Below are positions 21,094 through 52,700 of a DNA stretch of 64,000 nt, piece by piece (within the stretch, counting starts at the first letter, position 1; each line of letters begins with the position of its first letter). Where the stretch lies: positions 8,375,403 to 8,439,402 of the forward strand of contig CM082587.2 in NCBI GenBank assembly GCA_040954595.2, given 5' to 3'. Under the pieces are notes generated by a model. It was not told where the DNA came from, did not search any database, and saw only the letters and a program-made list of their open reading frames with translations. Both the position numbers and the translations under genes were made by a program. The stretch is from Balanoglossus misakiensis. Its lineage: Eukaryota; Animalia; Hemichordata.

Positions 21094-21103
21094 TTTAGTT
21101 TCA

Positions 21104-25427: not shown

Positions 25428-28400
25428 TCACTCTTCACCACGAGAACTACATGAACTGCGAGAACTACCAGCACTGCTATGTCCACCACTGTGAATACTT
25501 CCACGTCGACTGAATTCCGACCAATAACTTGTGCTGCCAAAAGTTTCATCAAAACCTCCCAATGGGTCAGAAGCATAATCTGCTTCAACAGTTTCAACAA
25601 TATTCTTTTCATCAAAATGTTCCGGCATATCATGTATATCATTATGACTTAAATCAATATAAGGTGATCTTTGTAAAGAATCAACAACAGATTGTAAGTT
25701 AATCACACCTCTATCTGTAATGTTATTATAACTCAAGTCAAGAAGCTTTGAGCTTTGCAGTTTGGATAACACTTTGCTGAAAATATCAACACCAACATCT
25801 CCAATGTTATTATGACTAAGATCCAGGTGTCTCACCAAAGTCATATTCTCCATCCCTCTACTTAAACTCTCAGCACCAACATCTACAATGTTGTTATGAC
25901 TAAGATCCAGGTGTTTCAGCCTAGTCATATTCCCCATCCCTTTACTTAAACTCTCTGCACCAACATCTCCAATGTTATTATGACTAAGATCCAGGTGTCC
26001 CAGCACAGTCTTATACCCTATCCCTTTACTTAAACTCTCTGCACCAACATCTCCAATGTTATTATGACTAAGATCCAGGTGTTTCAGCCTAGTCATATTC
26101 CCCATCCCTCTACTTAAACTCTTTGCACCAATAAATCCAATGTTATTATGACTAAGATCCAGGTGTTCCAGCCAAGTCATATCCTCCATCCCTTTACTTA
26201 AACTCTCTGCACCAACATCTCCAATCTTATTATGACTAAGATCCAGGTGTTTCAGCCTAGTCATATTCCCCATCCCTCTACTTAAACTCTTTGCACCAAC
26301 ATCTCCAATGTTATTATGACTAAGATCCAGGCGTTTCAGCCCAGTCATTTTCCCCATCCCTTTACTTAAACTCTCTGCACCAACATCTCCAATGTTATTA
26401 TGACTAAGATCCAGGTGTCTCAGCCCAGTCATTTTCCCCATCCCTTTACTTAAACTCTCTGCACCAACATCTCCAATGTTATTATGACTAAGATCCAGGT
26501 GTCTCAGCCCAGTCATTTTCCCCATCCCTTTACTTAAACTCTCTGCACCAACATCTCCAATGTTATTATGACTAAGATCCAGGTGTTTCAGCCTAGTCAT
26601 ATTCCCCATCCCTTTACTTAAACTCTCTGCACCAACATCTCCAATCTTATTATGACTAAGATCCAGGTGTTCCAGCCAAGTCATATCCTCCATCCCTTTA
26701 CTTAAACTCTCTGCACCAACATCTCCAATCTTATTATGACTAAGATCCAGGTGTTTCAGCCTAGTCATATTCCCCATCCCTTTACTTAAACTCTTTGCAC
26801 CAACATCTCCAATGTTATTATAACTAAGATCCAGGTGCCAAAGCCTAGTCATATTCCCAATCCCTCTACTTAAACTCTTTGCACCAATAAACCCAATGTT
26901 ATTATGACTAAGATCCAGGTGTTCCAGCCTAGTCATTTTTCCCATCCCTTTACTTAAACTCTTTGCACCAACATCTCCAATGTTATTATGACTAAGATCC
27001 AGGTATTCCAGCCCAGTCATATTCCCCATCCCTTTACTTAAACTCTCTGCACCAATATCTCCAATGTTATTATGACTAAGATCCAGGTATTCCAGCCCAG
27101 TCATTTTCCCCATCCCTAAATTACTTAAACTCTCTGCACCAACATCTCCAATGTTATTATGACTAAGATCCAGGTATTCCAGCCTAGTCATATTCCCCAT
27201 CCCTTTACTTAAACTCTCTGCACCAACATCTCCAATGTTATTATGACTAAGATCCAGGTATTCCAGCCCAGTCATTTTCCCAATCCCTTTACTTAAACTC
27301 TCTGCACCAACATCTCCAATGTTATTATGACTAAGATCCAGGTATTCCAGCCCAGTCATATTCCCCATCCCTTTACTTAAACTCTCTGCACCAACATCTC
27401 CAATGTTATTATGACTAAGATCCAGGTATTCCAGCCCAGTCATATTCCCCATCCCTTTACTTAAACTCTCTGCACCAACATCTCCAATGTTATTATGACT
27501 AAGATCCAGGTGTTCCAGCCCAGTCATATTCCCCATCCCTCTACTTAAACTCTCTGCACCAACATCTCCAATGTTATTATGACTAAGATCCAGGTGTTCC
27601 AGCCCAGTCATATTCTCCATCCCTCTACTTAAACTCTCTGCACCAACATCTCCAATGTTATTATGACTAAGATCCAGGTGTTCCAGCCCAGTCATATTCT
27701 CCATCCCTCTACTTAAACTCACTGCACCAACATCTCCAATGTTATTATGACTAAGATCAAGATGTCCCAGCAAACGCATTTTCCCCATCCCTTTACTTAA
27801 ACTCTCTGCACCAACATCTCCAATGTTATTATGACTAAGAGCCAGGTGTCTCAGCCAAGTCATATTCTCCATCTCTTTACTTAAACTCTCTGCAACAACA
27901 TCTCCAATGTTATTATGACTAAGATCCAGGTGTCTCAGCCAAGTCATATTCTCCATCCCTTTACTTAAACTCTCTGCACCAACATCTCCAATGTTATTAT
28001 GACTAAGATCCAGGTGTCTCAGCCCAGTCATTTTCCCCATCCCTCTACTTAAACTCTCTGCACCAACATCTCCAATGTTATTATGACTAAGATCCAGGCG
28101 TTTCAGCCCAGTCATTTTCCCAATCCCTTTACTTAAACTCTCTGCACCAACATCTCCAATGTTATTATGACTAAGATCCAGGTGTCTCAGCCCAGTCATT
28201 TTCCCCATCCCTTTACTTAAACTCTCTGCACCAACATCTCCAATGTTATTATGACTAAGATCCAGGCGTTTCAGCCCAGTCACTTTCCCCATCCCTTTAC
28301 TTAAACTCTCTGCACCAACATCTCCAATGTTATTATGCCTAAGATCCAGGTATTCCAGCCCAGTCATTTCCCCCATCCCTCTACTTAAACTCTCTACACC

Positions 28401-31400
28401 AACATCTCCAATGTTATTATGACTAAGATACAGGTGTATCAGCTCAGTCATATTCTCCATCCCTCTACTTAAACTCTCTGCACCAACATCTCCAATGTTA
28501 TTATGACTAAGATCCAGGTGTCTCAGCCAAGTCATATTCTCCATCCCTCTACTTAAACTCTCTGCACCAACATCTCCAATGTTATTATGACTAAGATCCA
28601 GCTGCCCCAGCCCAGTCATATTCCCCATCCCTTTACTTAAACTCTTTGCACCAAGATCTCTAATTTTATTATGACTAAGATCCAGGTGTCTCAGCCAAGT
28701 CATATTCTCCATCCCTCTACTTAAACTCTCTGCACCAACATCTCCAATGTTATTATGACTAAGATTCAGGTACCACAGCCCAGTCATATTCTCCATCCCT
28801 TTACTTAAACTCTCTGCACCAACATCTCCAATGTTATTATGATTAAGATCCAGGTGCCACAGCCTGGTCATATTCCCCATCCCTTTACTTAAACTGTCTG
28901 TACCAACATCTCCAATATTATTATGACTAAGATCTAGGTGTCTTAGCTCAGTCATATTCTCCATCCCTTTATTTAAACTCTCTGCACCAACATCTCCAAA
29001 ATGACAACCACTAAGTTTCAGAGTTTGCACAAATGAAAGAATACTCAACCCGTCACAGAAGTCTTCAAATTCAGCCTGACTCCACTGCTTACTTACTTCC
29101 ACAATCTTACATTCTTTGACAATTTCCTTGATGAATATTAATTTATCTAGAGTAAGACTGTCTTCATCAAAATTGACATCATGGAAGTATATCTGCAGTA
29201 CCTGGGGAATGTGTGGTAGGATGTACTTTAGGCCTCTGATGTCATTGCCAGCAACATTGACAATTTGTTGTTGATTCTGTGGCACAATGTTCAACAAAGC
29301 AACTATTCCTCTCAAACTGGTACCAGTGTTACTAAAATTAACATCAGTGAGATATTTCAGTCTATTCAGTTTCCCACCTATGTACTCAATGCCATCATCT
29401 CCTATGTTATTTGAACTGATGTCTAAATGTCTCAGAGACGACAGATGCTCAAAACTGTCAGCAACAACTTTAGCATTATCAGTAGTGAAACCAGACTCTG
29501 TAATAACTAAATGTTTTAAGTTCTTGAAAAAAACCAAATGTAAACATAGCAAGTTGGTTACATCAGAAGATAAACTTGAAACATTTATTTGTTCTACATA
29601 GTTTAGTTGTTTGTGCAAATTGAAAATGTCACCCACAGTTTGGAAGTGTGTCACATGTGATTTGAAATCTCCAACCTGGTTCACAATCTGTTCACAGTCT
29701 AACAACCTTTCAAGACTTCCTTCCACCCCATTATTCTCCAACAGAACATTGAATTCATCAACCAATGGTAACAATGCTACACACCCAAGAGAACCTAACT
29801 TGTTGTTCGAGACATCTATATCCTTCAGAAATGGAAAACATTTGACAGCTCTCAAAAGTACATCGATAAAGGTGTATTCTAAATCATTATATGGCAACTC
29901 CAATGTCCTTACTTTCAATGACACATTTTCATTTACCATCCTTTCGAAAACCTTTGTGATAAACACATTATTAAATCCAGTGAAATGGAGTGATTTCAAC
30001 AGAGGCAGTGATCCCAATGCTTTGACAAGTGCCTGAATTGTTTCATGACCAACATCCTGAAAGTTGTAATCAACCGCTTCAATAGTCAGACCCCTCAGAC
30101 CGACCTCACTATGACCTCTGACAGATTTGTGTGTGTGAGCCATTAAGAGTTGATGGAATGTGATGTACCTAGTGACCACAGTCAACTCAGTTGAGTTTTT
30201 AACTTGAAATTTGACAGTTGATGATGGATTTTCAATCATTACATTCAGGTGTTTGTTGAACTCCTCTGAAAGGTCTGCCCTTTCCTTATCACTTGTCAAA
30301 TTGATATTCTGAACAATAGTTGTGTTCTTTAAAATAAATGATACTTCATCTAAACTTTGGCAAGAGACTCTATTTAAACCAACGGCTGACAGATCTAATG
30401 GTTGTCGTTTTAACAACTGCTGAATAATTCCTGTAAACTTTTCTGGACATTTTGATTCATGAAGGCAACCAGCAAGTAGTGCAAAATATTCATACCTCAC
30501 TGGAAATGACTTTCCTATACATTTTGTGAGTACTTTGAAGAAAAAAGTATCCTTTTTCTTACCCACAAAAGATCTAAAACGCAAAGCAAGTGGTACTCTG
30601 AAGGAAAGTGTTGTTTTATCCTTCGTCATACTTGACAAAAAATACAGAGCAATAGGCATGGACATCAAAATGGTCTGAATTCTATTCCGTTCCAAGAATA
30701 AATTTTTGTCTTTCTTCAAATACACAGCAACTGCGTAAAAATATAGATATCGACTTAAAAAGTAATATGGGGACCTATATTGTTGAGTCTTTCTACACAA
30801 ACCAAACAGATAGGCTTCATTAACAGAGGCAGTTCGTGAGAGAGAAAGCGACTGAGTACGAACAAAGCCTTGAAATGCCTGTTGCCCAATTTCACAAAGC
30901 CTGTCCTGCACTACATCCCAAACATTCTCTATCTCAAGTTGATGTTCCCTACAGTACATCTCTACATGATGTTTAATTGCATATTCAGTTGCCTCTGTCA
31001 AAGTTGATGGTAAAGTGTAACAATTCTCATACCAGTAAGACACAAGAGAAGGAAAGAAAAATTCTTGCGATCTTAATTCACCCACAATTGGATGAAATCT
31101 GGACTGCTGTATCAAATACTTAGCTTGGCTGTTCTCTTCTACATTATGTAAAACATATCTCTCCCATTTATCATATGCGACAGTCCTCACCCAGGTCTTC
31201 TTAGGGATGGTGTAGACAGCAGACATATCTGATAGAAACAAAAAATATGTACTACATGTAATTATGCTCAATATATTCAACAGACATAATACACACAAAG
31301 ATGTTGTTTGGCCTGCAGTCTTCATTCAGTGACATAACTACCGGTACATGTAGTTAAGAACATTGTCAACAGTGGAAGGTCAGTGAAATCTTGATCAATT

Positions 31401-34400
31401 TTATCCATTTCAGCAGTAGTCAATGAAAATGAAATTCAGTGAGCACAGAAAATGTATGTCTGCCTTGAGGCAGCTAAGATACACAGCTGCCCTCAAGGCA
31501 GATTGGTAGAAATACACTTTGCAATGCTGTATAAGCATTTATAATATACCTCATGCTAATACTGTGCCGTGATTCGCCAGAATCCGTCACGTGATAGGAA
31601 AATAGAATCGACTATGAATCCCTCTAGGGAAATAGCAGAAAAAATATAAACCGGTCACGTGACCAGCGTGAGTGCGCAGACTCGGTCACGTCAATCACGG
31701 TCGCGTCGTCTGACACAATGGCCACTGCTGAAGATGTCGTCTGCCAAACTCAAGAGAAAATTGCAAGATTTTCCCAACTGTTAGCATGAGGTTAATTATA
31801 AAACACCTATAGCCTGGCCTATATTCGGGCTATAGCAGCCGTTTTTACCCCCTCGTGACTGTGAGTTACCAGATTCTGGTAACTCACAGCCCCTCGTGGG
31901 TAATAAACGGCCGCTATGGCCCTCATGGCCAGGCAATAGGTGTTCAATATGAATATGTGAAAAGTATGAATGATGCATTATAAAAATTGTGCAGATGTAA
32001 ATACTCACCATGAAGTATGTGTTTGACAGTCTCATACTCCTTTTCATCTATCTTCATTCTGATTCTGACAACACATCCAGCTTTCTCTGCTAGGGATCTC
32101 ATCTCGGATGTTATTAGGATACCACTCAGCATTTCATCAACTTCTCCAGCTTTGTATTTCTGCCAGAAATAATCAATGTCCTCGTCCGAAAGGAAACTTA
32201 GTAAGAACCACAAAGAGCTTTGCACAACTCCATCAAGTCTTGCTTTATATTTCTCATAGGCTTTATCTAACTGTTCTATCAGTTCTGGGTCATCTCTGTC
32301 CATGATTTTCTTTATCTGACGTTCATACATTGCTGTTATTTGATTTATCAAGATCTGTTTCTGCTCCATTTTCTCCCTTTCAAGTTCCATTTTCTCTCTT
32401 TCAAGCTCCACTGTTTTGTTTTCTTTCTCCATTTCAAATTCCATCTTCGTCTTTTCTGTTTCAAGCTCCATTGCTTTGTTTTCTTTCTCCCTTTCCACCT
32501 TCAACTTTTCAAGTTCTATCCTCTTGTGTTCTGTTTCATGCTCCATCCTTTTCTGTTCCGTTTCAAGCTCCATCCTTTTCTGATCTGCTTCAAGCTCCAT
32601 TTTCTTGTGTTCTGTTTCCACTCTCATCTTTTCCATTTCCATCTCCATCTTCATCTTTTTTTCTTCAAATTCCAGATTTACTTCACATTGAACAGCTATG
32701 GGTTGAATAAACAATGAAACAGAAATAATTGCCAGCTGGGTGACTATAAATTGATCAAGATTATGTTACTACATATAAACAACTGCCAAATTATATTTTA
32801 TCTCCCAAACGAGTAATATAGTTTCATCCTACTCAAAATAGCGATGTGTTATCAATAGAGAAAAAATACAATGTCTGATGATGTTAATGCCAGAGCTTAG
32901 ATGAGTGTTTTGACATCAACTGCCACTGTGGTTTTATATCAAAACATGCAAATGGCCATTTCTCTAAGCCACCAATCAGTTTGGATATTTGAGGCGGAAT
33001 TAGAAAAAATGTCTGCCGGGTGACTGTCCATGGGGGTGACTGTCTCCAAGAACCTTTGGTGTTCAGGAAAAGTGATTCATAGATGATGAGAAAAAGGAAG
33101 ATTCTGTAAAATCATGAAAGAGTACAAGGTAGGAAACATAACTTACTTGGCATCAATGGCCTTTTCCGTTGTATCAACTTTGATTTGTGAGTTTCACTTG
33201 TTGGTTTCTCATCTGAAACAACAGCAGACACTGGACTGCCTGTAAGAGAAATGATTCAATTTTTAAAATGGCAGCAGTTCATGGTGAAAAAGAGTGTGTA
33301 TTTTTAACACTACTGGTCCAATCAAAGAAAGCAATCAAACTGTACTTACCAAGGTTCTGTGGCTGGGGTGAGAGAGACTGGGAAGAACAGGCATATTCAA
33401 AACCTCCTACACCTTCATCAGTTAAAGGACTCCTTACACTATGGGCTGGTGATTTGGGACTTACCGTGATCACTAGAAAACAGAAAAATAAAGTTTAATG
33501 ACTGACAGTTGCATTTAAAATCTTATAACGAGATTACCAGTAATAAAAATATGAATTGTTAAAAATTGCATATTGCATTCTTTATTTAACGAAACATCAG
33601 TTTCTGCAATCTTTTTTTTTCAATCTTCAGGAGCCTGCAACTTGTAAAGTGTTCTTACCCGGGTTTTCTTGTTTGGGTGAGAGTGACTGGGAAAGCTGGC
33701 CATCTTCAAAAGTTGCAAAACCTTCACGAGTTGAGGGACTCTTTCCATTCTGAACTGGTGATTGAGGTGTTGGAACTGGAAGAAAGAAGCCAAAAATCAA
33801 TGACTAAAATTCGTAATCTCAAGTCTTGTAATAAGACGAATGAGATTATGAAGATTTACACTATTGGAAGGAAACTAACACATTTTGTTTTGGGATTGTG
33901 TGTGGAAAAGGAAATACTTACTTTGTCCAGGCTGTGTAGTCGGGACTTCTTTGAAACAAGCTCTGAACTTTTCATGACTGTCAGTAATCTCTGTGTGACT
34001 GAGATACATATTCTTCAAACGTGTTGCCGTGGGTATTGCATGTGTTGCTCTCAACATCTTATTGATCTGTTCTGATAAATCCCCATCAACTAAAGGGTCA
34101 TACAGGAAATACCTTGCTTCATGGCCTAGGTATGTGTTCATGAAAGTTGCTAAGGCAGTTCGTTCCGGAACCAACACAGGTAGTCCTGCAGCAATGGATC
34201 GTAATCCCTCCATCCTGAATGGCTCATCAGGTGGTATAATACAGACATTACTCTGGCGTAAATCTCTGTAAATATCATCTTGAGAGCTATATGGGGGATT
34301 AGAGTTTGCTTCAATGTAGGGGCAATTTAAGTTGTCTGTCAGAAAAGTCTTTGTGTTAGCAACATCAGCTTCCGGGGGAGTACGTACACACCACAATGGA

Positions 34401-37400
34401 ACCGTCACGTGCATAGAGTTGAATGTACCAGCTGTTTTTCCAACTTCAGCTGCCAGTCTTTTATATCGTGGGGATTGCACAGCTGTATCAGTCACCACAG
34501 TCAGGATTTGTTTCAAGTCACTTGTTTTTTCTATTTGATCCACATTAACATCAAAGAATTCTTTCTCTGGTCTCGGAAGATACAATTCATGTCTTACAGG
34601 AACTGCGTTTGTTTGGTAGAATTTCTTGTAATGTTCAAAGACATCTGGTCCAACAGAGAAAACTGCAGATGCCTCCTCAGCAAATTTGATGCGTTTGTCT
34701 TGTACTTCAACTGATGGGATGGTGTGATTGATGAGGATAATGTTAGCATCTTTGAAATATCGTTTCCTCAAAACATTTGCAACCAGGAGTTTTGCTGAAG
34801 GCTTGACATGTTCCACAATGTATTCCACATTTTGTAACTCTGTGAGGGTTGTGAAGAATGTCTCTGGAGAAAGAAACCAATCTGGTTTCGGTGTGTCGTT
34901 CTTGTATCTCTCAATCACATCCTCTTGTATTCTTGGAAGTATCAACTCAACTCCACAATCAGCTGCATCTTTCCTTTCTTCGTCACTTGCCTCCAAAACA
35001 ACACAGCATGTTTTACGTTGTCTGTCTTCGGCTACACTGCTGGCAAGTTGACAGTTGAGGGCAGATACAGTGTCCTTCACACGATTCCACTTTTCAGCCA
35101 GGAATATGATGGTCTTTTTGAGGTCCTTTCCTGAAAAAAGAACACACAAGATGTGTTTATTGATTTGCAATGCAAACCAATTTGTGAAGAAATTGCACAC
35201 TAACACAGCAATATGACAGAAGCAGATTTTGTTACAGAAAAGCAAAATATTTGATAATTTTCTTTTTTTTCAAATCATGCATAGATTTGGTAGTGAGAAT
35301 TTCTTTTCCACAAATTCACATCCGACACTGGTGATGCAGATAATTATCCATATATTACTTAACATGTAGCTGTCAATACTTGCACCTGGGAATCACTGAT
35401 TGGTTATCATTGATTGGTAACATTTTTTTACCTTTCTCAGTAGTGTCCTTTCCTACTAAAACAGTTTGTTGCCTAGGTGATGGTGACTGTCGTCTTGATG
35501 TCAAGGAATACTGTGCATGTCTGTCTATGTGGTGTTGTAAACTTGTGGTGACACCTTCTGGATCTTTCATCATTGTCGTCATCTCAATCTGTGTTGCAGC
35601 TGAACTAACTGCACTGCTAGCAGCAACATCACCGACATCTGAAATACCTGAAGTATGTGAAAAATAAACATGGGTGAATTCATTCTGACCTGTACGTGTG
35701 TTTAACTCCTATTAAAATATATTTTAATTACCACAAGCATTGTAAGTGATCAACTGTTCAAAATGCTTGCAATGACCACCATTTTTTTCAAAATTAAATT
35801 TTCATTTTACCTCTACGTTACAAATATGGGATCATTCAAAGCCTTATGTAGGACGGTGTGTCGTTAATGAGGACAGCATCTAACCATGAGCATTTGAACT
35901 GCATAATTGATAACTTTTCAAAGGGTCAGATGACCTCAAACTGACATGTCTTTCCATCATTTCATCTCTTTCATAATTATTTAATTCTGGTTGAAGGGTA
36001 TTTGTGTAATACAAAATGTATATAAAAATATATGGTATCATGAGATATATGCTTACCATGAGATTCTGTTGTGTATACTTGAGTCTTGGAATGAGTGGCT
36101 GTCACTGCTGGAATCTTGGGACGAGTTGATGTCATTGGCTGCACTTCTCCGGTGACTGGATTTGGATGCTGTGAGGGAAATGGTGGTCCTGCTGAGGTCC
36201 TCTCAGTTGGGAATGTTTGGAAAGTGGTAGATGGTAACTGTGATCCTGCTGAGGTCCTCTTAGTAGGGAATGTTTGGAAACTGGTAGTTGGGAATGTTTG
36301 GAAATTGGTAGATGGTAACTGTGATCCTGCTGAGGTCTTCTCAGTTGGGAATGTTTGGAAACCGGTAGATGGTAACTGTGATCCTGCTGAGGTCCTCTCA
36401 GTTGGGAATGTTTGGAAACTGGTAGATGGTAACTGTGATCCTGCTGAGGTCCTCTCAGTTGGGAATGTTTGGAAACTGGTAGATGGAAACTGTGGTCCTG
36501 CTGAGGTCCTCTCAGTTGGGAATGTTGGCCAACTGGTAGATGGTAACTGTATGCCTGCTGAGGTCCTCTCAGTTGGGAATGTTTGGAAACTGGTAGATGG
36601 TAACTGTGGACCTGCTGAGGTCCTCTCAGTTGGGAATGTTTGGAAACTGGTAGATGGTAACTGTGGTCCTGCTGAGGTCCTCTCAGTTGGGAATGTTTGG
36701 AAACTGGTAGATGGTAACTGCAGTGGTCCTGCTGAGGTCTTCTCAGTTGGGAATGTTTGGAAACTGGTAGATGGTAACTGTGGTCCTGCTGAGGTCTTCT
36801 CAGTTGGGAATGTTTGGAAACTGGTAGATGGTAACTGTGGTCCTGCTGAGGTCTTCTCAGTTGGGAATGTTTGGAAACTGGTAGATGGTAACTGTGGTCC
36901 TGCTGAGGTCTTCTCAGTTGGGAATGTTTGGAAACTGGTAGATGGTAACTGTGGTCCTGCTGAGGTCCTCTCAGTTGGGAATGTTGGCCAACTGGTAGAT
37001 GGTAACTGTATGCCTGCTGAGGTCCTCTCAGTTGGGAATGTTTGGAAACTGGTAGATGGTAACTGTGGACCTGCTGAGGTCCTCTCAGTTGGGAATGTTT
37101 GGAAACTGGTAGATGGTAACTGTGGTCCTGCTGAGGTCTTCTCAGTTGGGAATGTTTGGAAACTGGTAGATGGTAACTGTGGTCCTGCCGAGGTCCTCTC
37201 AGTTGGGAATGTTTGGAAACTGGTAGATGGTAACTGTGGTCCTGCTGAGGTCCTCTCAGTTGGGAATGTTGGCCAACTGGTAGATGGTAACTGTATGCCT
37301 GCTGAGGTCCTCTCAGTTGGGAATGTTTGGAAACTGGTAGATGGTAACTGTGGACCTGCTGAGGTCCTCTCAGTTGGGAATGTTGGCCAACTGCTGGTAG

Positions 37401-38781
37401 ATGGTAACTGTGGTCCTGCTGAGGTCCTCTCAGTTGGGAATGTTTGGAAAGTGGTAGATGGTAACTGTGGTCCTGCTGAGGTCTTCTCAGTTGGGAATGT
37501 TTGGAAACTGGTAGATGGTAACTGTGGTCCTGCTGAGGCCCTCTCAGTTGGGAATGTTTGGAAAGTGGTAGATGGTAACTGTGGTCCTGCTGAGGTCCTC
37601 TCAGTTGGGAATGTTGGCCAACTGCTGGTAGATGGTAACTGTGGACCTGCTGAGGTCCTCTCAGTTGGGAATGTTTGGAAAGTGGTAGATGGTAAATGTG
37701 GTCCTGCTGAGGTCTTCTCAGTTGGGAATGTTTGGAAACTGGGAGATGATAACTGTGGTCCTGCTGAGGCCCTCTCAGTTGGGAATGTTGGCAAACTCTC
37801 TCCACTTCTGTCACTTATCTCTTGAGGGCTATCAGCTTTCATCATAGACTCAACTTCTCTTGTCACTTCATCATATGGATAGTCTTTGTCAAATCCTTTC
37901 TCAAATCGAACTTCTACATGCCGTGCTAACATGTAAAGTCTGGCATTTTTCAACAGCTGAATAACTGTCTCAGGTTTGTCCTTTGATAAATGTCCAAATA
38001 TACACAACTTTTCAAATAAAACATATGCTCGTTTCTCTGTCCGAATTTCTTCTCTCACAACTGTTGGTATTGAAGGTTTCAATATAGCACCCATTCCATC
38101 TACCAATTTAATCAGGTCATCTTTAATGGAAAAAAGTAAAAGTTATAGTACCGTACACATTTTCTGGATAAAAATCTTTTGAGAAAAATCTTAAAAGTAC
38201 AGTAGATCACTGTCTTAAATTTCAAATGGAAAATGGGATGATCATGTATTGTCTTTGTGCCAAGTTTGAATAAAATCAGCCTTGTTGTACAGTGTTTCCA
38301 TGGGTGCTCCAACAGAAGATTGTTACAAGAATACAGGGGAAAATGTTAGTTTTATTACTGATACTAGTTCAGTGTTTCATTCAGGATGGTATCAGCAGGG
38401 GGGATATTTCCCTCTTTGCCAGAATATTTGAGGGGGATTCCACTCTGGCAAGGGGGACTGTAATATCTTCAACATGTGAATGGCATTGGTCCCCCCTTGA
38501 CAAAGTGCTATGGGGTGTCAACATGTCAATCCCCCCATGCATCCCCCCATCTAGATGAAACACTGGTTGTATGTGAGATGACTGTGGATGCAACTACTGC
38601 ATCATTATAGACATTCTGTGAACAACCGAGACATGCACACTGATGAGTAGACATCCAGGAGTGTCCCAGAGCACCACTCACTCTGGGATAAAAACATTCA
38701 AATATTAAATGTACACTCACCATTTCCGATGTCATCTGCCAGCCTTATAAGGTACTCCCTAAACCAATCAAAGTCTGCCAT
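25428..38781 (-). CDS. NLR-like protein, ~3456 aa: DED, Ser/Thr/Pro repeats, degenerate GT-B glycosyltransferase, coiled coil, TRADD-N-like domain, truncated NACHT (helical/winged-helix part only) and RI-type LRRs
   Basis: Exons (minus strand, all GT-AG, all introns phase 1, open throughout): 38781-38721, 38120-36057, 35647-35432, 35130-33922, 33775-33659, 33472-33350, 33239-33147, 32695-32009, 31228-25428. DED-like MADFDWFREYLIRLADDIGNDDLIKL...LFEKLCIFGHLSKDKPETVIQLL; GT-like EPFRMEGLRSIAAGLPVLV; TRADD-N-like SSLWFLLSF..IDYFWQKYKAGEVDEMLSGILIT; NACHT-tail-like LPSTLTE...LCEIGQQAFQG; LxxLDLSHNNIGDVGA LRRs. Confidence 0.8.
25770..28965 (-). repeat. Coding LRR tandem array 1: 38 x 84 bp (28 aa)
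   Basis: Unit MxxMTxLxxLDLSHNNIGDVGAESLS(K/R)G, counted from the ORF translation. One unit carries a 3-nt insertion. Confidence 0.97.
31547..31950. mobile_element. Crypton-like palindromic element in the last NLR intron (related fragment at ~50225-50366)
   Basis: Inverted acctcatgctaa/ttagcatgaggt plus an imperfect 150-bp terminal hairpin. The segment aataaacggccgctatggccctcatggccaggcaataggtgttcaatat recurs at 50318-50366. Confidence 0.55.
36183..37795 (-). repeat. Coding minisatellite, ~28 x 57 bp (TFPTERTSAGPQLPSTSFQ)
   Basis: 57-bp unit gttgggaatgtttggaaactggtagatggtaactgtggtcctgctgaggtcctctca inside NLR exon 2. Confidence 0.97.
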
Positions 38782-39703: not shown

Positions 39704-40586
39704 GTCATACAACAGACGATGTGAAATATACTGGGGTAGACTTTAATTTTCAGAATCAGTAATTTGACTCGAGGTGAAACTCCCAGCACGTCACAAGACA
39801 GAATCTGTTTCCTGACACATAAATCCAAGAGAACATACATTGAGGGCTGGTAGTTGGTGATTTGAGGAATCACAATAGCCCACTAATAGTAACATATAGC
39901 CTTACAACTCTGACAGCTTTATGTGAACTCTACAAAACACACGGTAAAGGGTATATGAAGTGTACTCGCTACATCAGGGCCAACAACAACAGTGGTCTAA
40001 GAGCAAGTGTGATGAATTTGAACACACATTTCAACTACTTTCAGAACTCATAATGATTCTTCAGAATACGTCTGCTCAAATAATATCTGCAACACCTGTT
40101 AAAAGTATTGACATGATCAGTATGGCTATACATTTTGCATTATTGGTGATTGACTTGTGTCTGAAGGAGCAAATTTAAATGAATTCAAATTTGGATTAAT
40201 AATTTAATCTCTATGGTGTACATAACACATGGAGTACGTCATTGATTAAATTTTCGAACTGTTACCTGACCATAATGTGGCTGAGGACCAAATTTAATAT
40301 TTTGTCATTATTATAAACATCAAACCAAATTGTTTCAATGCACGTTAACAATTTCTTAATCATAGCAGCTCTACTTAACATTATCAGGTAATTTTATAGT
40401 TTTGTCAATGCCAGTGAATTTGCAGACTTCAAAAAGTATAGGTGCGAACAATTCAGACTCGGACACGGAGATCGAGAACAGAGCAATGGCGTACGCGTAA
40501 ACAAAAGGTCACCTGATCGTGGTGTGTCAGTGTACTGTACATTTCTAGTATCATATTCAAACATCAGGAAATATATAAATAACGGA

Positions 40587-42556: not shown

Positions 42557-43479
42557 TAATTCACAAGTGGTAGGGCTATGTACAAAACTTGTACAGCAGT
42601 GGTCTGCAGATAGTGACTGTAATAAGTTCAATCACAAATTTCAGGTGCTTTCCGATGTCATAATGATTCCAGCCTAGTCTGTGAATTCAGCCGAACAATC
42701 CGAAATACTAAGAACGATAATATTTCCCTTCTATCGCTTCTTATGTTTTCCTGATCCCTAATTTGCTACAAGGAAATAGCTACTAAAAATGCCACTTAAA
42801 GTGGCCTCAGGTGAACTCTGAACACAAGTAGATTTACCGTTTAAAACATTATTTTGCCGGAAAGCTGTTCGAAAATCCAATTCAAATGATTCCTCAAGCA
42901 CTTATTTTCTATATCTGTCAAGAATTATAGAACACAGTAGCAAGAAAACACTTACTTTCAGTTCTGGTAGAACTCTTCAAAATCCAGCCTCCAGCTTGCA
43001 CCCTATCACATCCCACTTTCAGTCATGTGAGTCTGTTAAACATTAACCCAGAGACGCCCTCTACAGTATCTTCTAACGTTTCTGTTCTTCATGCTCATCT
43101 AGTGGCTTTATTACCCTTTGGACCAGCTTTATCTAGCCTAGACAGATGCTCCAACCCTATCTGTGCATAAAACCTGTTTGTGTGGACTGTAGGTAAGTTA
43201 AAATTTGAAAAGAATAAATTCGTATATTACACATGAATAATTCCATCATTTAATATTGGTCCATACCAAAAATTATTTCCAGAGGTAATTTTACACACAT
43301 GTACAGGGTGTGAGTTGAATTGTAACAACTAGCCATTGAACATGTTTCAGTGAGTAGACAAACATCAATAACCCATCAAATGAAACTTAAATAACCAAAA
43401 TATTTTCAAAAGTTATCAACTTTTCTCTTTTACTCTAAGTTCTCATTTAAAATAAACTAGACAAATCACTAAAGTAATG

Positions 43480-46400
43480 ATAAACATTTAATGCTGTATA
43501 TAATAATAAACAAAAAAATATTCAATAATAAAACTAGAACAAAAATAAACAACACAAATTAAAACTTAAGTGTAAAAGATATAATATGCTTTGAACAAAA
43601 TCATGTATTTTATACAAAGAATTAATAATGATGTAAATTTACTAATCTATGTAAAAATAATAAAAATAAATTTGAAATAATAAATCTAAAACCAAAATAA
43701 ACAACATATATTAAATAATAGATCTCACATCATGCAGTTTAGGTTAAAAAAATATTATACAATTAAAATTTACTGCTATATGTAAACAAAATGTATTACA
43801 AACAATAAGCATAAAAAAAATAAAAGGATATATCAAAATTGGTTCCTTCAGTTCTCGTGATATGCCAAAATATCAAAATTCACTAAATATAAGAAGCAAC
43901 ACTCACTAACTTCAATAAGCTCTCAAGAATTATCCATAAAGCTACATTTTCCACAGACAGGTTCAATGTTTAGAGCATCTGATTTCTTAAGTGAATTAAA
44001 CTTATTTGGATATCATCACTACTTTTTAAAGTGAATATCATCTAGGAGGTCAGTCAGGACAAGTATAGTTCAAACAAGCTGACCATAGAATGTGACCGCA
44101 AAAATATGTATGTTGGGATATGTTGAGTGAAAAAGAAATTGCAAGATTCTAACATGATGATGATCTATGATATGAGCATCAAGTAGGGCTCCTATATAAA
44201 ACACCAAACAACACCACCATCGGAACTCAGAATAACAGGGCTACTCATCACCAGCCCCGCCCCCAATAAAAGGACTAGGGCGATCCCTAGAAACGAAATA
44301 AGGTAGTCCCAGCCCATTCAGACTGACTAAGTCATGCATCACACACACAAAAAGAAAAGAAATAGATGATAACCCTCTATCCCCCCTCCAGTACGACGAT
44401 AATATTAAGGGGTGCAAGTGTGAGAATAATTCAATGTCACAACCATAACTTTTACCAAAACATTGAAAACTATCACTCTTCACCACGAGAACTACATGAA
44501 CTGCGAGAACTACCAGCACTGCTATGTCCACCACTGTGAATACTTCCACGCCGACTGAATTCCGACCAATAACTTGTGCTGCCAAAAGTTTCATCAAAAC
44601 CTCCCAATGGGTCAGAAGCATAAGCTGAGTCAACAGTTTCAACAATATTCTTTTCATCAAAATGTTCCAGCATATCATGAATATCATTATGACTTAAATC
44701 AATATAAGGTGATCTTTGTAAAGAATCAACAACAGATTGTAAGTTAATCACACCTCTGTCTGTAATGTTATTATAACTCAAGTCAAGATGCTTTGAGCTT
44801 TGCAGTTTGGATAATACTTTGCTGAAAATATCAACACCAACATCTCCAATGTTATTATGACTAAGATCCAGGTGTCTCACCAAAGTCATATTCTCCATCC
44901 CTCTACTTAAACTCTCAGCACCAACATCTACAATGTTGTTATGACTAAGATCCAGGTGTCTCAGCCATGGCATATCCTCCATCCATTTACTTAAACTCTC
45001 TGCACGAACATCTCCAATGTTATTATGACTAAGATCCAGGTATCTCAGCCCAGTCATATCCTCCATCCCTTTACTTAAACTCTCTGCACCAACATCTCCA
45101 ATGTTATTATGACTAAGATCCAGACGTCTCAGCCATGGCATATCCTCCATCCCTTTACTTAAACTCTCTGCACCAACATCTCCAGTGTTATTATGACTAA
45201 GATCCAGGTGTCTCAGCTCAGTCATATTCTCCATCCATTTACTTAAACTCTCTGCCCCGACATCTCCAATGTTATTATGACTAAGATCCAGGTGTCTCAG
45301 CTCAGTCATATTCTCCATCCCTTTACTTAAACTCTCTGCACCAACATCTCCAATGTTATTATGACTAAGATCCAGGTACCACAGCCCAGTCATATTCTCC
45401 ATCCCTCTACTTAAACTCTCTGCACCAACATCTCCAATGTTATTATGACTAAGATCCAGGTGTCTCAGCCCAGTAATATTCCCCATCCCTTTACTTAAAC
45501 TCTCTGCACCAATATCTCCAATGTTATTATGACTAAGATCCAGGTATTCCAGCCCAGTCATTTTCCCCATCCCTAAATTACTTAAACTCTCTGCACCAAC
45601 ATCTCCAATCTTATTATGACTAAGATCCAGACGTCTCAGCCATGGCATATCCTCCATCCCTTTACTTAAACTCTCTGCACCAACATCTCCAATGTTATTA
45701 TGACTAAGATCCAGGTGTTCCAGCCCAGTCATATTCTCCATCCCTTTACTTAAACTCACTGCACCAACATCTCCAGTGTTATTATGACTAAGATCCAGGT
45801 GTTCCAGCCCAGTCATATTCTCCATCCCTCTACTTAAACTCTCTGCACCAACATCTCCAGTGTTATTATGACTAAGATCCAGGTGTCTCAGCTCAGTCAT
45901 ATTCTCCATCCCTTTACTTAAACTCTCTGCACCAACATCTCCAATGTTATTATGACTAAGATCCAGGTGTCTCAGCCCAGTAATATTCCCCATCCCTTTA
46001 CTTAAACTCTCTGCACCAATATCTCCAATGTTATTATGACTAAGATCCAGGTGTCTCAGCCATGGCATATCCTCCATCCATTTACTTAAACTCTCTGCAC
46101 GAACATCTCCAATGTTATTATGACTAAGATCCAGGTGTCTCAGCCCAGTAATATTCCCCATCCCTTTACTTAAACTCTCTGCACCAACATCTCCAATGTT
46201 ATTATGACTAAGATCCAGGTGTCTCAGCCCAGTAATATTCCCCATCCCTTTACTTAAACTCTCTGCACCAACATCTCCAATGTTATTATGACTAAGATCC
46301 AGGTGTCTCAGCCATGGCATATCCTCCATCCATTTACTTAAACTCACTGCACCAACATCTCCAGTGTTATTATGACTAAGATCCAGGTGTCTCAGCTCAG

Positions 46401-47765
46401 TCATATTCTCCATCCCTTTACTTAAACTCTCTGCACCAACATCTCCAATGTTATTATGACTAAGATCCAGGTGTTCCAGCCCAGTCATATTCTCCATCCC
46501 TCTACTTAAACTCTCTGCACCAATATCTCCAATGTTATTATGACTAAGATCCAGGTGTCTCAGCCATGGCATATCCTCCATCCATTTACTTAAACTCTCT
46601 GCACGAACATCTCCAATGTTATTATGACTAAGATCCAGGTGTCTCAGCCCAGTAATATTCCCCATCCCTTTACTTAAACTCTCTGCACCAACATCTCCAA
46701 TGTTATTATGACTAAGATCCAGGTGTCTCAGCCCAGTAATATTCCCCATCCCTTTACTTAAACTCTCTGCACCAATATCTCCAATGTTATTATGACTAAG
46801 ATCCAGGTGTCTCAGCCATGGCATATCCTCCATCCATTTACTTAAACTCACTGCACCAACATCTCCAATGTTATTATGACTAAGATCCAGGTGTCTCAGC
46901 CCAGTAATATTCCCCATCCCTTTACTTAAACTCTCTGCACCAATATCTCCAATGTTATTATGACTAAGATCCAGGTGTCTCAGCCATGGCATATCCTCCA
47001 TCCATTTACTTAAACTCACTGCACCAACATCTCCAGTGTTATTATGACTAAGATCCAGGTGTCTCAGCTCAGTCATATTCTCCATCCATTTACTTAAACT
47101 CTCTGCCCCGACATCTCCAATGTTATTATGACTAAGATCCAGGTGTCTCAGCTCAGTCATATTCTCCATCCCTCTACTTAAACTCTCAGCACCAACATCT
47201 ACAATGTTGTTATGACTAAGATCCAGGTGTCTCAGCCATGGCATATCCTCCATCCATTTACTTAAACTCTCTGCACGAACATCTCCAATGTTATTATGAC
47301 TAAGATCCAGGTATCTCAGCCCAGTCATATCCTCCATCCCTTTACTTAAACTCTCTGCACCAACATCTCCAATGTTATTATGACTAAGATCTAGACGTCT
47401 CAGCCATGGCATATCCTCCATCCCTTTACTTAAACTCTCTGCACCAACATCTCCAGTGTTATTATGACTAAGATCCAGGTGTCTCAGCTCAGTCATATTC
47501 TCCATCCATTTACTTAAACTCTCTGCCCCGACATCTCCAATGTTATTATGACTAAGATCCAGGTGTCTCAGCTCAGTCATATTCTCCATCCCTCTACTTA
47601 AACTCTCTGCACCAACATCTCCAAAATGACAACCACTAAGTTTCAGAGTGTGTACAAATGAAAGAATACTTATTATCCTTTACAGAACTCTTCAAATTCA
47701 GACTGACTCCACTGCTTACTTACTTCCACACTTTCACATTCTTTGATAATTTTCTTGATGAATAA
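43480..47765 (-). pseudogene. 5'-truncated duplicate of the NLR last exon: 33-unit LRR array, C-terminus and ~1 kb of 3' flank
   Basis: Homologous to ~24420-29140. The 1038-codon frame 44473-47589 is open, but a 2-nt insertion with TAA TAA near 47670 cuts it from the upstream homologous codons. Homology ends at ~47765. No DED, GT or NACHT exons are upstream. Confidence 0.8.
44815..47589 (-). repeat. LRR tandem array 2: 33 x 84 bp
   Basis: Same consensus as array 1, counted from the ORF translation. Confidence 0.97.
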
Positions 47766-49733
47766 ACTGACTGGCCAATCAACGGCTGGTGTGAATCACA
47801 ATCAGTATAGCCGTCACCTAGTTCTTCCTTTACCCTGGTCTCATCCACACGCAGAGGTCCATTCGAGGAAACATCACACGCAACCCCATCCGCCATTTCT
47901 GCGGGTGTCTGTTCACAATGATACCTGGTTGATCTGACATCACTTCCTCTTGTTTCCCCTTGAAAGTCTCCATCGTCTACACTAAGTCCCTTTCCAATGT
48001 TGCAAGCATTTTCAATTGCACATTTTGCATCCAATCCACAGTCCGTACTATTTAACCGATACGAGACAACACTGACACTTTCTTCGGAGTAGCAAGCGCC
48101 ATCTACGTTACAATAGGACACCCGCCTTTCGCCAGACTCCTCACTGATAAAATCTCTTGAATTTGCATTTCCTTCATAAGACAAGAAATCTTCTTCTGTA
48201 AGCTCCAACTTCACTCTAGGTGCATCTTTCCCTGGTTTGTCTATTGGCTCAATGTACATATCTGGGTCACTACATGTACCACAAGAGTTTTCACTCATCT
48301 GTGAGACGTGGTCCCTAATGCAGAAATTAATGACACCATCTTCTCCGGGAATATGGTATTCCTGTATGAAGTAATCGTCACTCTCTGGGGTGCTACACAC
48401 GGGCTCTGACGTCACCACTTCCAGCGTCGCAAGTGTCGCCATAGTTACCACAGCGCTCGTCTGCAGTGACGTCATCAGTATTAACAGTCACAATCCCACG
48501 TGGTGCATAATTAGCACCAGTGCCCTCCCCACAGTCAGTGATGATCATGGCCAGAATCTAAATAAGCACCTTCAGTTTTGATGCAATTGTCCCATAAGGG
48601 AGCATTCGTTTTTTACAGGGAGGGGGGGGGGCCGGTGGAATTTGAGTCGCCGACTAAATGTAAAAGGCAACCCCCCCTCGAAATTACTTTTCTAAAATGT
48701 GTCCCCCCCTAAATTCTTCAATTGTAAAATGTGAACCCCCCCCCCCCAAAAAAAAGTTTATCCACCGGATTAAACTTATCAAACTTTGTCAGATATTTAG
48801 ACTGACCATTGTTATTGTTGACATATGATTCTATTCAGAATTACATTCATTCTATCTTGTAAAAAAAGAAAAACAGCACTCCCATGAAAAGAATTTGAAA
48901 CTGATGTTTCCCCTCATCAGTGGGTATTAAAACTGAACATTGTTTTTATTTTTTAAGTATTTGTATTCTGTGTTGGGAGACATTGTAAACCGAGAATTGA
49001 AGGGGGTGGGTTTGGGAGGGGGTGTCCCCCTCCCACGTTAGAAAATTTTGTAAAATACAGAGCTCAAAGCTGCATTTTAATGAACCCGGCAAAAGCAAAT
49101 TAACTCAACTACCGGTATGTTGGGGAGGACAAATTTAACCGTCGCCGCTCAAAGTTATCATGGGGTGGGGGCAAGTCCCCTGACCTGGGACACTATAGAT
49201 AAACCAGTCAATGATTGGAAGGTGTTGATCCGGTTTGTAAAATAAAGGGCGCGAAACTGCATTTTTGCGGACTCAAAATAAACATTTAGTCGTCAAAGTG
49301 TGCTATAATTCCATACAAATCTGTTGTAAAAATTGTCCCCCCCCTAAACCATTGATTATAAAATTTGTCCCCCCCCCCTAAAAATTGCTTTGTAAAAGTA
49401 AACCCCCCCCTGATTTCCACCGGCCCCCCCCCCTCCCTGTAAAAAACGAATGCTCCCTAACCGAACTTCAGAGTGCGCGGTTGTCTGTACTGGGTTAGTG
49501 TCCATGTAACCTCTTTCTGCTTGATCACAGGCGTCGCTATTTGAGCCTGATCCGCATTCAGAAGTTTCAAACACATTTTCAAAATCCTTCGGTTCTTCTT
49601 TTATTCTTATATTGTTGGGCACATCCCTACAAATTTCGACAGATTCGCTGACTTGTGTGCTGCTTTCGTCAGATTCATCCTCGATGTCTTCACTCAAATC
49701 GCACGCTTTCAGTTTCATTCTGACCATTCCAGT
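47766..49733 (-). pseudogene. Broken acidic low-complexity exon (IKEEP/IKTE motifs), interrupted by a MITE and fused to LRR array 2
   Basis: Acceptor cctctgccag precedes 49733. ORF MVRMKLK...IKEEP...SEVR rejoins in frame as LWDNCIKTE after removing the MITE, then frameshifts before the 47720-48475 ORF (VKLE, VKEE motifs). Confidence 0.55.
48598..49457. mobile_element. PIF/Harbinger-like MITE
   Basis: TIRs of ~40 bp, gggagcattcgttttttacagggagggggggggccggtggaa, with a TAA target duplication at 48595-48597 and 49458-49460. Confidence 0.9.
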
Positions 49734-52700
49734 CTGGCAGAGGAAATTTAAAATGTTGGTCCTTTCTGTCGAAAGAAAATATTAAATGGTGACAACTTTA
49801 TACTTTTTATGGGTTGTTGTGTTTTATTTACACCAAAATGACACAATGAGAATCGGAAATTATCACAATGAGGTTTTCTAGCACTAAATACGCCATCACT
49901 CAGATAGGACGCTCACTTAGCACGTTGCAATTTTATTCAGTGAGGTTGCAGCTCCACTCAATGAAAAGATTACGTCTGCGTGACCCCCTGATTGTTCGTG
50001 CGCGATCTCTCTCTCCCCCTCTCTCTCTCATTCAACGGCTCTCAGTCCAAAACAGACATGAAAGTTCAAAACTGACATAATCATGCACAATTCTCACTCT
50101 CATTTCACCCATATGAGTACACGCTGAAGACTGTCAGCAAAATCAGAAGCCTACAACACAACAGTACACTAACGAGGTGCTAATCAGCGCGGTATCCCAG
50201 CCGGATACATTATGCATGCAAGCTCATTAAACGCTGCTAATCGCTTTCCCGCCTGTACCTCGCCTGCGGCCTCGGGAAATAGCATATGATTCTGGTAACC
50301 CACAGCCCCTCGGGTGTAATAAACGGCCGCTATGGCCCTCATGGCCAGGCAATAGGTGTTCAATATAACATGATGTACACATTTTCTGCTGGCTGAATCT
50401 CATCCCAGATGATTGCACAGCGCCCTCACAGTCAATATGTGCCTGCTCCCTCAAATCGGCTAACAAGCTCTAACAGGTCAAATATCACTTCCTTTATTCA
50501 TACTTTTTAAATTCCACTACACAATGTACAGTCATTTTAACTGTATCTGGAATATTAGCAAAGATAAAATACTACTTTTCTCATTTCATAAAAAGACAAA
50601 AAGCCACCATCTTTTGAAATTATTATTTGTTCATTTTTGTATGTATACAAACAGTACTGGACATCTCTCCAATCACAGATTTCATTCTGGTGGCCAAATA
50701 AAAACGTTGAACCACTTGCACACTGTTTTTAAAAAAGGCCATATATAAATTTGGAATGACTGTATACCTCCAAATGAAAAATGTTTTTAGATTGTACATG
50801 TTGAATGAGTGTGTGGGTCTCTTATTCTGATGACACACATATAAAAACATCACAATAATATAATTTTATGATGTCAGTTAAAATTATGTCATCATAGAGT
50901 TTCTGTATTAGGTTTATATTTGGATGTGATGAAAGCACTTGCAATGGATACTTCAACTCTTTTGAAGATGCAGCATACTCAGTAACTTCTCGACTGAAAC
51001 ATGGCAATGTCAGAAGATGGTGGCTGGTTTCTTGAAAAACTTGATGACTTGATATTCCGTACTACAATATCTCTGTACATCAATCATCAATAACATCTGT
51101 GTTATACAAAAAAAGTATATTACAAAGTCTATTTCCATATATATAGAAATAACGAAAAAAGACGAAATATTGGATTACATAGTGTCTGTTATAGGTGGCA
51201 AAACTGTAAGCATACCAGATTATCTTTACTCTGGTATTTATAAATGTAGTATTTGCGACAACAAAAATCACTAAAACCAACCAGAGCTATTGCACGGCAG
51301 TGAAATCTTAATTTCTTATGAATAATTCTACATCGTGTTTTCTTAGATGTGGAAAATGACTAACTGTAGTTGTGTAATCCAATTCAAAGAGTTTCTTCAA
51401 GTAACAACAAATTTTATAGCATCTGCAGCAGCCTGTTTCTGGATTTTTTCTTATTGGTTGATGGCGTTTATTTCAATAAAACACATCCATCAATTTGTAC
51501 CGTCGAATTTTTTGAGAGGGTTCACCTTAAAACAGGACCATCACTGAGTATTATGTCCTGTGTAAGCAAAGTAGCCATAATTCAACCGATCACTGTAGTT
51601 TCCCACTTCAAAAGTCACATCAAATATATTTTCAAAGAATTGCCTATTTGGTCTTTCAATCAAAACCACATTTCTAGTTTAATAGCACCCAGTTGATTAA
51701 GTGTATTTTTTCAAAAAGCAGAGAACTTAAATTCCAAAGTTTTGTCATTAAAAAGTACAGCAGCCATAAAGTGTTCCTCAATCTCTGCTTTTTACACTAC
51801 TTTGGATAAATGTGACTCATTCATGACGACACATTTGGTCATGTCTCTGCAGTCCATCTTAATAATATGTCAAGAATTTAACTGCCAAATACCATTATAC
51901 TGAATACATAACAACATTTTAAACTACACTTTATAGGTTTCCATAGTTACAGATAATATGGATCATGTGATAGACTTTTTGCAAAAATGTTCATAAAATT
52001 TTACCAAGTACTGCACAAAGCTGTGAGGCATTGTACATACATACAATACTTGTAAAACTTTTATCGCATTTTGTGAAATGTGTTTGATATTTCTCACATC
52101 AGAACTGGGTACCACTTCATGTTGCAGGATTTGTACATGAAAAGTTACCAGGGTACATAAGTTCCTGGTCTTTTCCGCAGTCAAAAATGTCTCTTAGATT
52201 TTCCGGGATTACCCAGAGTGTACGAACCCTGATGCTGTGAAAATGTGGCCCTAGACTTGGAAAGTCATCTTTAAAACATTTAAAACCTGGAAAAAATCCC
52301 TCTTAAAATTGTTTCATAATTTCCTTCAACCAGAGTTCTAGGTTATGTAAAAATAAATGAAATGTGTGTACTTGTCCAGATATATACAACAAATTGTTAA
52401 GGATATATGTTTCTCGTCCAGTGTTGCTTAGAAATCAGTCAGTCTCCGGATAAACAGAGATTTATGTATGATGCAGGCAAAAAATGAAGTCATTTTAACG
52501 AATATGATACAGTAATGACTCGTGAGCCGAGGAAAATTTCTTGTGGAAGGCATAACACAGTCACACAAACAATCATCCCTGCTATTCTTCTATGATGTTT
52601 GTAAACATCATGAAGGGGCATTAGCTTTGATGATATTCTACAGAATTCTTTGTTATGTGATTAATTACGGTTTCTTGTTCTACCCTTTTATGCATGCTGA

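What the first reader, a model, noticed from the sequence alone, without database searches (positions are those of the whole stretch)
43480..47765. Headless second LRR array upstream of the NLR-like gene: candidate silent donor cassette for receptor diversification
Seen: a 33-unit, 84-bp LRR array lies in the same orientation ~5-9 kb 5' of the gene start. It is stop-free over 1038 codons, yet a frameshift with TAA TAA near 47670 cuts it off and it has none of the gene's N-terminal exons. It carries variants absent from array 1 (MPW, SKW, NNT, DVRA, NIT), while array 1 has others (RLKH, GLKR, GFIG). Established: lamprey VLRs and chicken Ig genes are diversified by copying from flanking non-expressed cassettes. 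Inference: this array may act as a germline or somatic gene-conversion reservoir for an intracellular LRR receptor.
Basis: partly seen in the sequence, partly recalled or inferred. Interest (0 to 1): 0.8.

Follow-up and report, generated by a model that had tools for sequence, protein, structure and literature searches.

The report
Broken receptor copy still swapping repeats
The second repeat array is the frameshifted, headless back half of a neighbouring immune-type receptor gene, likely of an acorn worm, fused to a decayed piece of another gene; it has likely kept exchanging repeat units with intact relatives, probably mostly as the receiver, as known for fungal immune pseudogenes, rather than serving as a lamprey-style donor library.

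Summary
In detail: 33 84-bp LRR units plus a cap, open frame, a 2-bp insertion giving TAA TAA, and five private motifs absent from all 38 array-1 units. It is joined out of frame, at a 2-bp overlap, to a decayed exon of another multi-copy gene. Gene 1 is a DED-GT4-TRADD-N-LRR protein (closest hits Ptychodera flava) with no Walker A, so not a true NLR. Exchange is likely: flanks differ by 9%, but an 821-bp 3' tract by 2%; a 134-bp stretch with a unique insertion is identical; there are no fixed differences. Direction leans gene to pseudogene: 6 of 33 array-2 units are nearest to array 1. Array-2 variation looks neutral (pN/pS 1.0) and its private changes miss the presumed binding face. Verdict: likely a pseudogene in concerted evolution, like Podospora NWD pseudogenes. 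A donor role is unshown; somatic use and expression are untested. The scan noted other GT4/TRADD-N arrays in this genome, none with this feature in the listings seen.

The parts
43440..47764 (-). 5'-truncated copy of the receptor gene's last exon and 3' UTR (homologous to 24385-29137)
   Evidence: self-BLAST and alignments
44835..47624 (-). LRR array 2: 33 84-bp units (one of 87 bp) plus cap; units 1-6 nearly repeat units 28-33
   Evidence: unit distances 1,0,1,0,0,3
44473..44834 (-). C-terminal tail and stop codon of the copy
43440..44472 (-). 3' UTR of the copy; ATTAAA at 43492; homology ends about 50 nt past gene 1's AATAAA (24437)
44111..44931 (-). Low-divergence tract (16 of 821 sites differ from gene 1), likely a conversion or recombination tract
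45473..45606 (-). 134-bp stretch identical to array 1 (unit 25 = array-1 unit 23, with the 3-bp insertion, plus the start of the next unit)
47673..47674 (-). 2-bp insertion giving the frameshift and TAA TAA; absent from all contigs laid over this place
47763..47764 (-). Junction with 2-bp overlap between the host exon and the LRR-gene segment; out of frame
   Evidence: loose ends
47636..47723 (-). Possible cryptic 88-nt intron (GTAAGT donor, phase 2, to a CTTAG acceptor, phase 2) that would skip the stops and join host frame to array frame; untested
47765..49765 (-). Decayed acidic exon of an unidentified multi-copy gene: transposon insertion, two frameshifts, 3' end lost
48598..49457 (.). High-copy miniature inverted-repeat element, 44-bp terminal repeats, TAA duplication (Harbinger-type, label recalled); empty site seen in reads
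24385..38781 (-). Gene 1: DED-like, 19-aa repeat, GT4-conflict, coiled coil, TRADD-N-like, helical region without Walker A, LRR; eight coding exons modelled by eye
25790..28999 (-). LRR array 1: 38 units plus cap, within gene 1's last exon

Best explanation
Array 2 is the headless, frameshifted back half of a GT4-TRADD-N-LRR receptor gene joined out of frame to a decayed exon of another gene, and it likely survives as a pseudogene whose repeats still turn over and still exchange with intact paralogs, probably mostly as recipient. Shown: anatomy, junction, lesions, mosaic divergence, variant sharing. Inferred step 1: it arose from a family member other than the window's gene-1 allele, by a break joined at a 2-bp microhomology (DNA-level rearrangement about 60%, 5'-truncated retrocopy about 40%). 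Inferred step 2: unequal crossover inside the array spread a few private alleles and erased singletons. Inferred step 3: germline conversion or recombination with gene 1 or its close paralogs overwrote the 3' tract and some inner units. It adds to the family's repeat pool only passively.
For: Block limits and content. Both parents of the junction appear in reads of one sample, overlapping by 2 bp. Host exon lesions: transposon with empty site in a paralog, and a 5-bp deletion at one of two frameshifts. Divergence from gene 1: 13 of 140 sites in the 5' flank, 57 of 661 in the distal UTR, 7 of 362 in the proximal UTR, 9 of 459 in the last units and tail; permutation p 0.0002 for heterogeneity. 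No fixed differences between arrays. A 134-bp identical stretch has P about 3e-6 per site at 9% and 0.002 at 4.5%. Six of 33 array-2 units (14, 22, 23, 25, 27, 33) are nearer to an array-1 unit than to any array-2 unit; the matches of 14, 22, 23 and 25 have relatives one base away inside array 1. All 7 array-2 singleton alleles occur in array 1; array 2 has 0 private singletons, array 1 has 29. pN/pS is 1.03 in array 2 and 2.01 in array 1. Reads hold a version sharing the copy's 5'-flank letters without the insertion. Precedent: PMC1805685.
Against: Direction is read from one haplotype with no outgroup. Five array-1 units (1, 3, 7, 23, 38) are nearer to array 2, and unit 7 is a possible reverse import. 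Shared units could be ancestral if the array part is young (P 0.067 at 2%). The best statistical break is at 43822, not at my 44111 boundary. pN/pS rests on non-independent pairs, and array-1-only alleles are 27 nonsynonymous to 7 synonymous, equal to the random 194 to 51. No listed contig bridges the junction or holds the insertion (16 of 86 records shown). Silence is assumed, not shown.
Confidence: 0.66

Rival explanations
1. Array 2 is a maintained donor reservoir that feeds new repeat variants into the expressed receptor, in the germline or (much less likely) in immune cells.
For: Exchange is likely. Direct orientation about 19 kb apart and 91% identity between units allow conversion either way. 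Array-1 unit 7 is nearer to array 2, and the AVSL allele is 1 of 38 in array 1 against 4 of 33 in array 2. The direction of the 821-bp tract is unknown.
Against: 0 of 38 array-1 units carry any of 7 private alleles; three or more recent whole-unit imports would leave none with P 0.028. Private changes lie at unit positions 4, 11, 15, 16 and 28, none at the presumed face positions 19, 20, 22, 24, 25. Array 2 is less diverse: 20 distinct units of 33 against 35 of 38. Gene 1 is complete without it.
Confidence: 0.13
2. Array 2 is a young duplicate made mosaic once, at its origin, from two paralogs or alleles, with no continuing exchange.
For: Reads show several versions of the 5' flank. The 2% tract is near the 10 of 654 and 4 of 913 differences seen in nearby contigs. 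The arrays are statistically separable (p 0.0005).
Against: Array-1-like units are scattered at positions 14, 22, 23, 25 and 27 between units loaded with private alleles, which needs several events or long retention.
Confidence: 0.1
3. Array 2 is expressed as a chimeric or LRR-only protein through a cryptic 88-nt intron that removes the frameshift.
For: A consensus GTAAGT donor at 47723 and an acceptor at 47636 share phase 2 and would give one open frame of 1308 codons from 48487. Tail, stop and a poly(A)-type signal are intact.
Against: The same donor word sits inside gene 1's coding exon (29096), so it is inherited, not new. The host exon upstream carries a transposon and two frameshifts. 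No promoter or upstream exon was found between NCKAP1's end and the host exon.
Confidence: 0.07
4. The copy is an assembly artefact or misplaced haplotig.
For: Near-identical repeats are known to misassemble (PMC12222747, passages). No listed contig holds the junction or the 2-bp insertion; the best run holds 0.47 of the sampled words.
Against: 9% flank divergence, private alleles and a different unit order do not fit an allele of gene 1. A join with only 2 bp of overlap is not how assemblers misjoin (general knowledge). Contigs identical to the window lie at 47904-48171 in both runs.
Confidence: 0.04

Closest known systems
Podospora anserina NWD/HNWD family and its pseudogenes NWDp1-3 (Paoletti 2007, PMC1805685: abstract, passages, section 13; PMC12222747: passages)
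   Same: Intracellular receptor family with near-identical repeats in concerted evolution; pseudogenes keep intact repeat arrays, explained there by replacement from active loci; NWDp3 is a headless remnant beside a transposon relic; later data show mostly within-gene clustering with occasional shared units.
   Different: Animal, 28-residue LRR units instead of WD40, no NACHT NTPase, no RIP; one haplotype only; no function or positive selection test shown here.
GT4-TRADD-N-LRR proteins (DEDD2/TRADD-like clade) of cephalochordates, hemichordates and cnidarians (Kaur 2021, PMC8195603: passages, section 15)
   Same: Gene 1 has this architecture; nearest relatives are Ptychodera flava proteins at 37-63% identity.
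   Different: LRR units here are about 81% identical to each other as protein, against about 41% in three P. flava relatives; a truncated copy was not mentioned in the passages read.
Lamprey VLR cassettes (PMC3308329, passages) and chicken Ig pseudo-V donors (recalled)
   Same: Non-expressed LRR sequence lies beside a receptor gene and could template copying.
   Different: VLR germline genes are incomplete and need hundreds of 1-3-module cassettes plus deaminases in lymphocytes; here the gene is complete, there is one truncated paralog, and traceable flow leans the other way.

Membership tests
VLR-type donor cassette system | Germline receptor gene incomplete without donors | tested here: not met
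   Gene 1's last exon is one open frame holding 38 units, cap and tail
VLR-type donor cassette system | Many short cassettes of 1-3 modules around the gene | tested here: not met
   One 4.3-kb truncated paralog in 64 kb; beyond the window not testable, no genome held
VLR-type donor cassette system | Donor-specific sequence appears in the expressed gene | tested here: inconclusive
   0 of 38 array-1 units carry private alleles in this haplotype; one or two possible older imports
VLR-type donor cassette system | Somatic, deaminase-driven assembly in immune cells | not testable with these tools
   No RNA holder listed; no genome
NWD-type pseudogene in concerted evolution (works like) | Repeats over 80% identical within a gene | tested here: met
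   Mean 91.8% in array 1 and 92.0% in array 2
NWD-type pseudogene in concerted evolution (works like) | Intact repeats within an otherwise broken locus | tested here: met
NWD-type pseudogene in concerted evolution (works like) | Repeat units shared between loci beyond flank similarity | tested here: met
   direction only leaning
NWD-type pseudogene in concerted evolution (works like) | Diversifying selection at binding-surface codons of active genes | tested here: inconclusive
   Array-1 pN/pS 2.0 and six variable positions, but distinct-allele counts match chance; no codon model run
NLR (NACHT-LRR), gene 1 | NACHT NTPase with Walker A | tested here: not met
   No GxxxxGK[ST] in the last exon, nor in an NTPase position in four P. 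flava relatives, while all six NACHT-annotated hits checked have it; no Pfam NACHT; only sub-0.9 leads to NACHT-associated helical domains
GT4-TRADD-N-LRR family, gene 1 | GT4 domain | tested here: met
   PF20706, E 4.7e-25
GT4-TRADD-N-LRR family, gene 1 | TRADD-N domain between GT4 and LRR | tested here: met
   Atlas top hit TRADD-like_N, 0.91, 209 of 256 features; Pfam itself gave no hit
GT4-TRADD-N-LRR family, gene 1 | N-terminal death-fold domain | tested here: inconclusive
   Pfam DED E 0.042, below cut-off; no pairwise match to P0006
Processed (retroposed) pseudogene | Ends at the poly(A) site, with A tail and target-site duplication | tested here: inconclusive
   Homology ends about 50 nt past AATAAA; tail only 48% A, reached by 9% of local windows, and no duplication found; host continuation absent from the window; no intron spanned

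The most novel reading that the evidence does not exclude
An animal intracellular LRR receptor family keeps a shared, fast-turning pool of 84-bp repeat units across intact genes and a silent truncated copy, and the silent copy returns new variants to expressed receptors by germline (possibly somatic) conversion: a fungal NWD-style or proto-VLR-style diversifier in an invertebrate deuterostome.
Probability: 0.15. Interest if true: 0.72.

Novelty: new variant of a known kind. Interest (0 to 1): 0.36.

Why it matters
It suggests that the fungal pattern (near-identical sensor repeats, concerted evolution, pseudogenes that keep intact arrays) also operates on LRR units of an animal GT4-TRADD-N receptor. 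The seven private alleles give ready markers to measure conversion direction and rate in sperm and immune cells. If flow from the silent copy were shown, it would bear on how LRR template copying, as in VLRs, could start. On present evidence it is a decaying paralog, and I found no paper describing this case in four searches (listings only, open-access library).

Tried and rejected
No genome was held, so paralogs could not be compared. No RNA holder listed: no evidence on expression. Runs X4 and X5 hold only repeat-derived pieces, and X3 laid nothing. The host exon had 0 hits among 1.84 billion representatives and none in Pfam; the second host reference was in a wrong frame and is uninformative. 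The host gene's continuation seen in reads is absent from the window, so a clean insertion into the host gene is rejected. No target-site duplication, no clear A tail, and no flank similarity beyond the block except shared repeats. A possible decayed exon at 42950-43170 gave no Pfam hit in three frames. NCKAP1 ends near 53056, so the locus is not inside its introns. A family profile of gene 1's helical region did not match NACHT proteins significantly. Contig depth was not used as copy number beyond a rough hint. The 34 of 34 Ile at position 28 in P. flava units is forced by my search pattern and was discarded. Sequence look-ups among earlier findings gave nothing. No structure was predicted; face and core positions rest on recalled LRR geometry. 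No supplements were read.

Full report
Observation. Two 84-bp arrays lie on the minus strand: array 1 at 25790-28999 and array 2 at 44835-47624. Unit parsing gives 38 units plus a cap and 33 units plus a cap. The array-2 frame is open for 1068 codons. A 2-bp insertion at 47673-47674 puts TAA TAA in gene 1's upstream frame. Gene 1's ATG is at 38781.

What the block is. Self-comparison shows that 43440-47764 matches 24385-29137. That covers 140 bp before the array, the array, cap, tail, stop codon and the 3' UTR to about 50 nt past gene 1's only AATAAA. It lacks all upstream exons and the first 2.1 kb of the last exon. At 47764 it joins an acidic exon of another gene, out of frame. In DNA contigs of one sample (two runs), LRR-gene versions run off at 47764 into gene 1's own upstream letters, and host-gene versions run off at 47763 into other sequence. 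Both parents therefore exist, and they overlap by 2 bp. That host continuation is not in the window, and there is no target-site duplication or clear A tail.

The host exon is decayed. It carries an 860-bp inverted-repeat element with a TAA duplication and, once that is set aside, two frameshifts. A contig with the empty site has 5 extra bases at one frameshift and 22 gap letters in all. The 5 bases rejoin the frames; the other 17 were not displayed but have the needed length modulo 3. The exon has no protein relative. NCKAP1 ends near 53056.

Gene 1. It reads DED-like (Pfam E 0.042, weak), a 57-bp repeat, GT4-conflict (E 4.7e-25), coiled coil, TRADD-like N domain (Atlas 0.91), a helical region and LRRs. 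All 6 hits of the GT4 search and the top 4 of 12 hits of the last-exon search are Ptychodera flava proteins, so the animal is likely an acorn worm. This architecture is described in PMC8195603 (passages and section 15). There is no Walker A and no NACHT hit, so 'NLR' fails as membership. Units are about 81% identical as protein here against about 41% in three P. flava relatives, so homogenisation is likely recent. Reads show at least three versions of the pre-array segment besides the copy's, one sharing the copy's letters without the insertion. The copy may thus come from another family member, or have an intact allele.

Exchange. Divergence from gene 1 is 13 of 140 sites in the 5' flank and 57 of 661 in the distal UTR, but 7 of 362 in the proximal UTR and 9 of 459 in the last units and tail, with a 192-bp run free of substitutions. 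Heterogeneity is significant by permutation (p 0.0002), with the best break at 43822; my 44111 boundary was chosen by eye. The arrays have no fixed difference. Array-2 unit 25 is identical to array-1 unit 23, including a 3-bp insertion, within a 134-bp exact match. Six of 33 array-2 units are nearer to array 1 than to their own array. For units 14, 22, 23 and 25 the matches belong to a block of close relatives in array 1, and the units are outliers in array 2, which leans gene to pseudogene. Against this, array-1 units 1, 3, 7, 23 and 38 are nearer to array 2, and unit 7 could be a reverse import. No outgroup was available.

Donor role. Seven alleles are private to array 2 (4 nonsynonymous, 3 synonymous by single-base class) and mark 23 of 33 units; none is in array 1. 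Three or more recent whole-unit imports would leave no trace with P 0.028; one or two are not excluded. Array 2 has 20 distinct units, no private singleton, and a six-unit block repeated with few differences, which points to recent unequal crossover. An open frame is expected by chance (P 0.82). pN/pS is 1.03 in array 2 and 2.01 in array 1. Non-consensus residues at presumed face positions are 12 of 165 against 46 of 190. These figures are descriptive, because units are not independent, and array 1's distinct alleles (27 to 7) match the random ratio (194 to 51). Face positions rest on recalled LRR geometry.

Other readings. A donor at 47723 and an acceptor at 47636 would splice the host frame to the array frame. 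The donor word is also inside gene 1's exon and the host exon is broken upstream, so I rate this 7%. An artefact is unlikely, but no listed contig holds the junction or the insertion (16 of 86 records shown; contigs drop rare variants). Expression is untested.

Comparison. The closest system is the Podospora NWD family, whose pseudogenes keep intact repeats, explained by replacement from active loci, and one of which is a headless remnant (PMC1805685, passages and section 13). Later work found mostly within-gene clustering with occasional sharing (PMC12222747, passages). VLR loci differ in having an incomplete germline gene and hundreds of short cassettes (PMC3308329, passages). Four searches (listings only) showed no report of this arrangement in an animal LRR gene. 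Earlier scan notes describe other GT4/TRADD-N arrays in this genome; they are unchecked and did not change my reading.

Verdict. A real feature: likely a truncated pseudogene in concerted evolution with its family (0.66). New variant of a known kind, interest 0.36. A true donor reservoir has about 0.15 probability and would merit about 0.72.

Noticed in passing
window 30240-31228 (-): Between TRADD-N and the LRRs, gene 1 and four P. flava relatives have a helical region with weak leads to NACHT-associated domains but no P-loop: possibly an NLR-derived sensor that lost its NTPase.
   Followed up: partly
window 25790-28999 (-): Array 1 varies mainly at unit positions 10, 13, 14, 17, 19 and 20 while the Leu/Asn frame is fixed; 35 distinct units of 38. 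It is the better candidate for a diversifying sensor.
   Followed up: partly
window 36286-37797 (-): 26 copies of a 57-bp unit encode a Ser/Thr/Pro-rich 19-residue repeat inside gene 1, between the DED-like and GT4 domains.
   Followed up: no
window 40584-41754: Element with 313-bp, 99.7% identical terminal inverted repeats holding 43-bp subrepeats, between gene 1's start and the copy.
   Followed up: no
window 39300-39700: Near-perfect palindrome with arms of about 190 bp, bounded by (AAC)n and (TTG)n, just upstream of gene 1 (seen by eye).
   Followed up: no
window 53056-62000 (-): 3' exons of NCKAP1 (Nckap1 hit E 4.8e-15); last exon ends near 53056.
   Followed up: partly
window 53721-53996 (+): Myb/SANT-like ORF (E 2.2e-17) in an NCKAP1 intron, likely from a Harbinger-type transposon (association recalled).
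   Followed up: no
window 19490-21736 (+) and 1721-2128 (+): TDP-43 N-terminal-like ORF, HECT-like ORF and YqaJ-like ORF, probably mobile-element cargo.
   Followed up: no
window 47765-49950: The host segment occurs in several versions in reads yet has no protein relative: an unidentified multi-copy gene family.
   Followed up: partly
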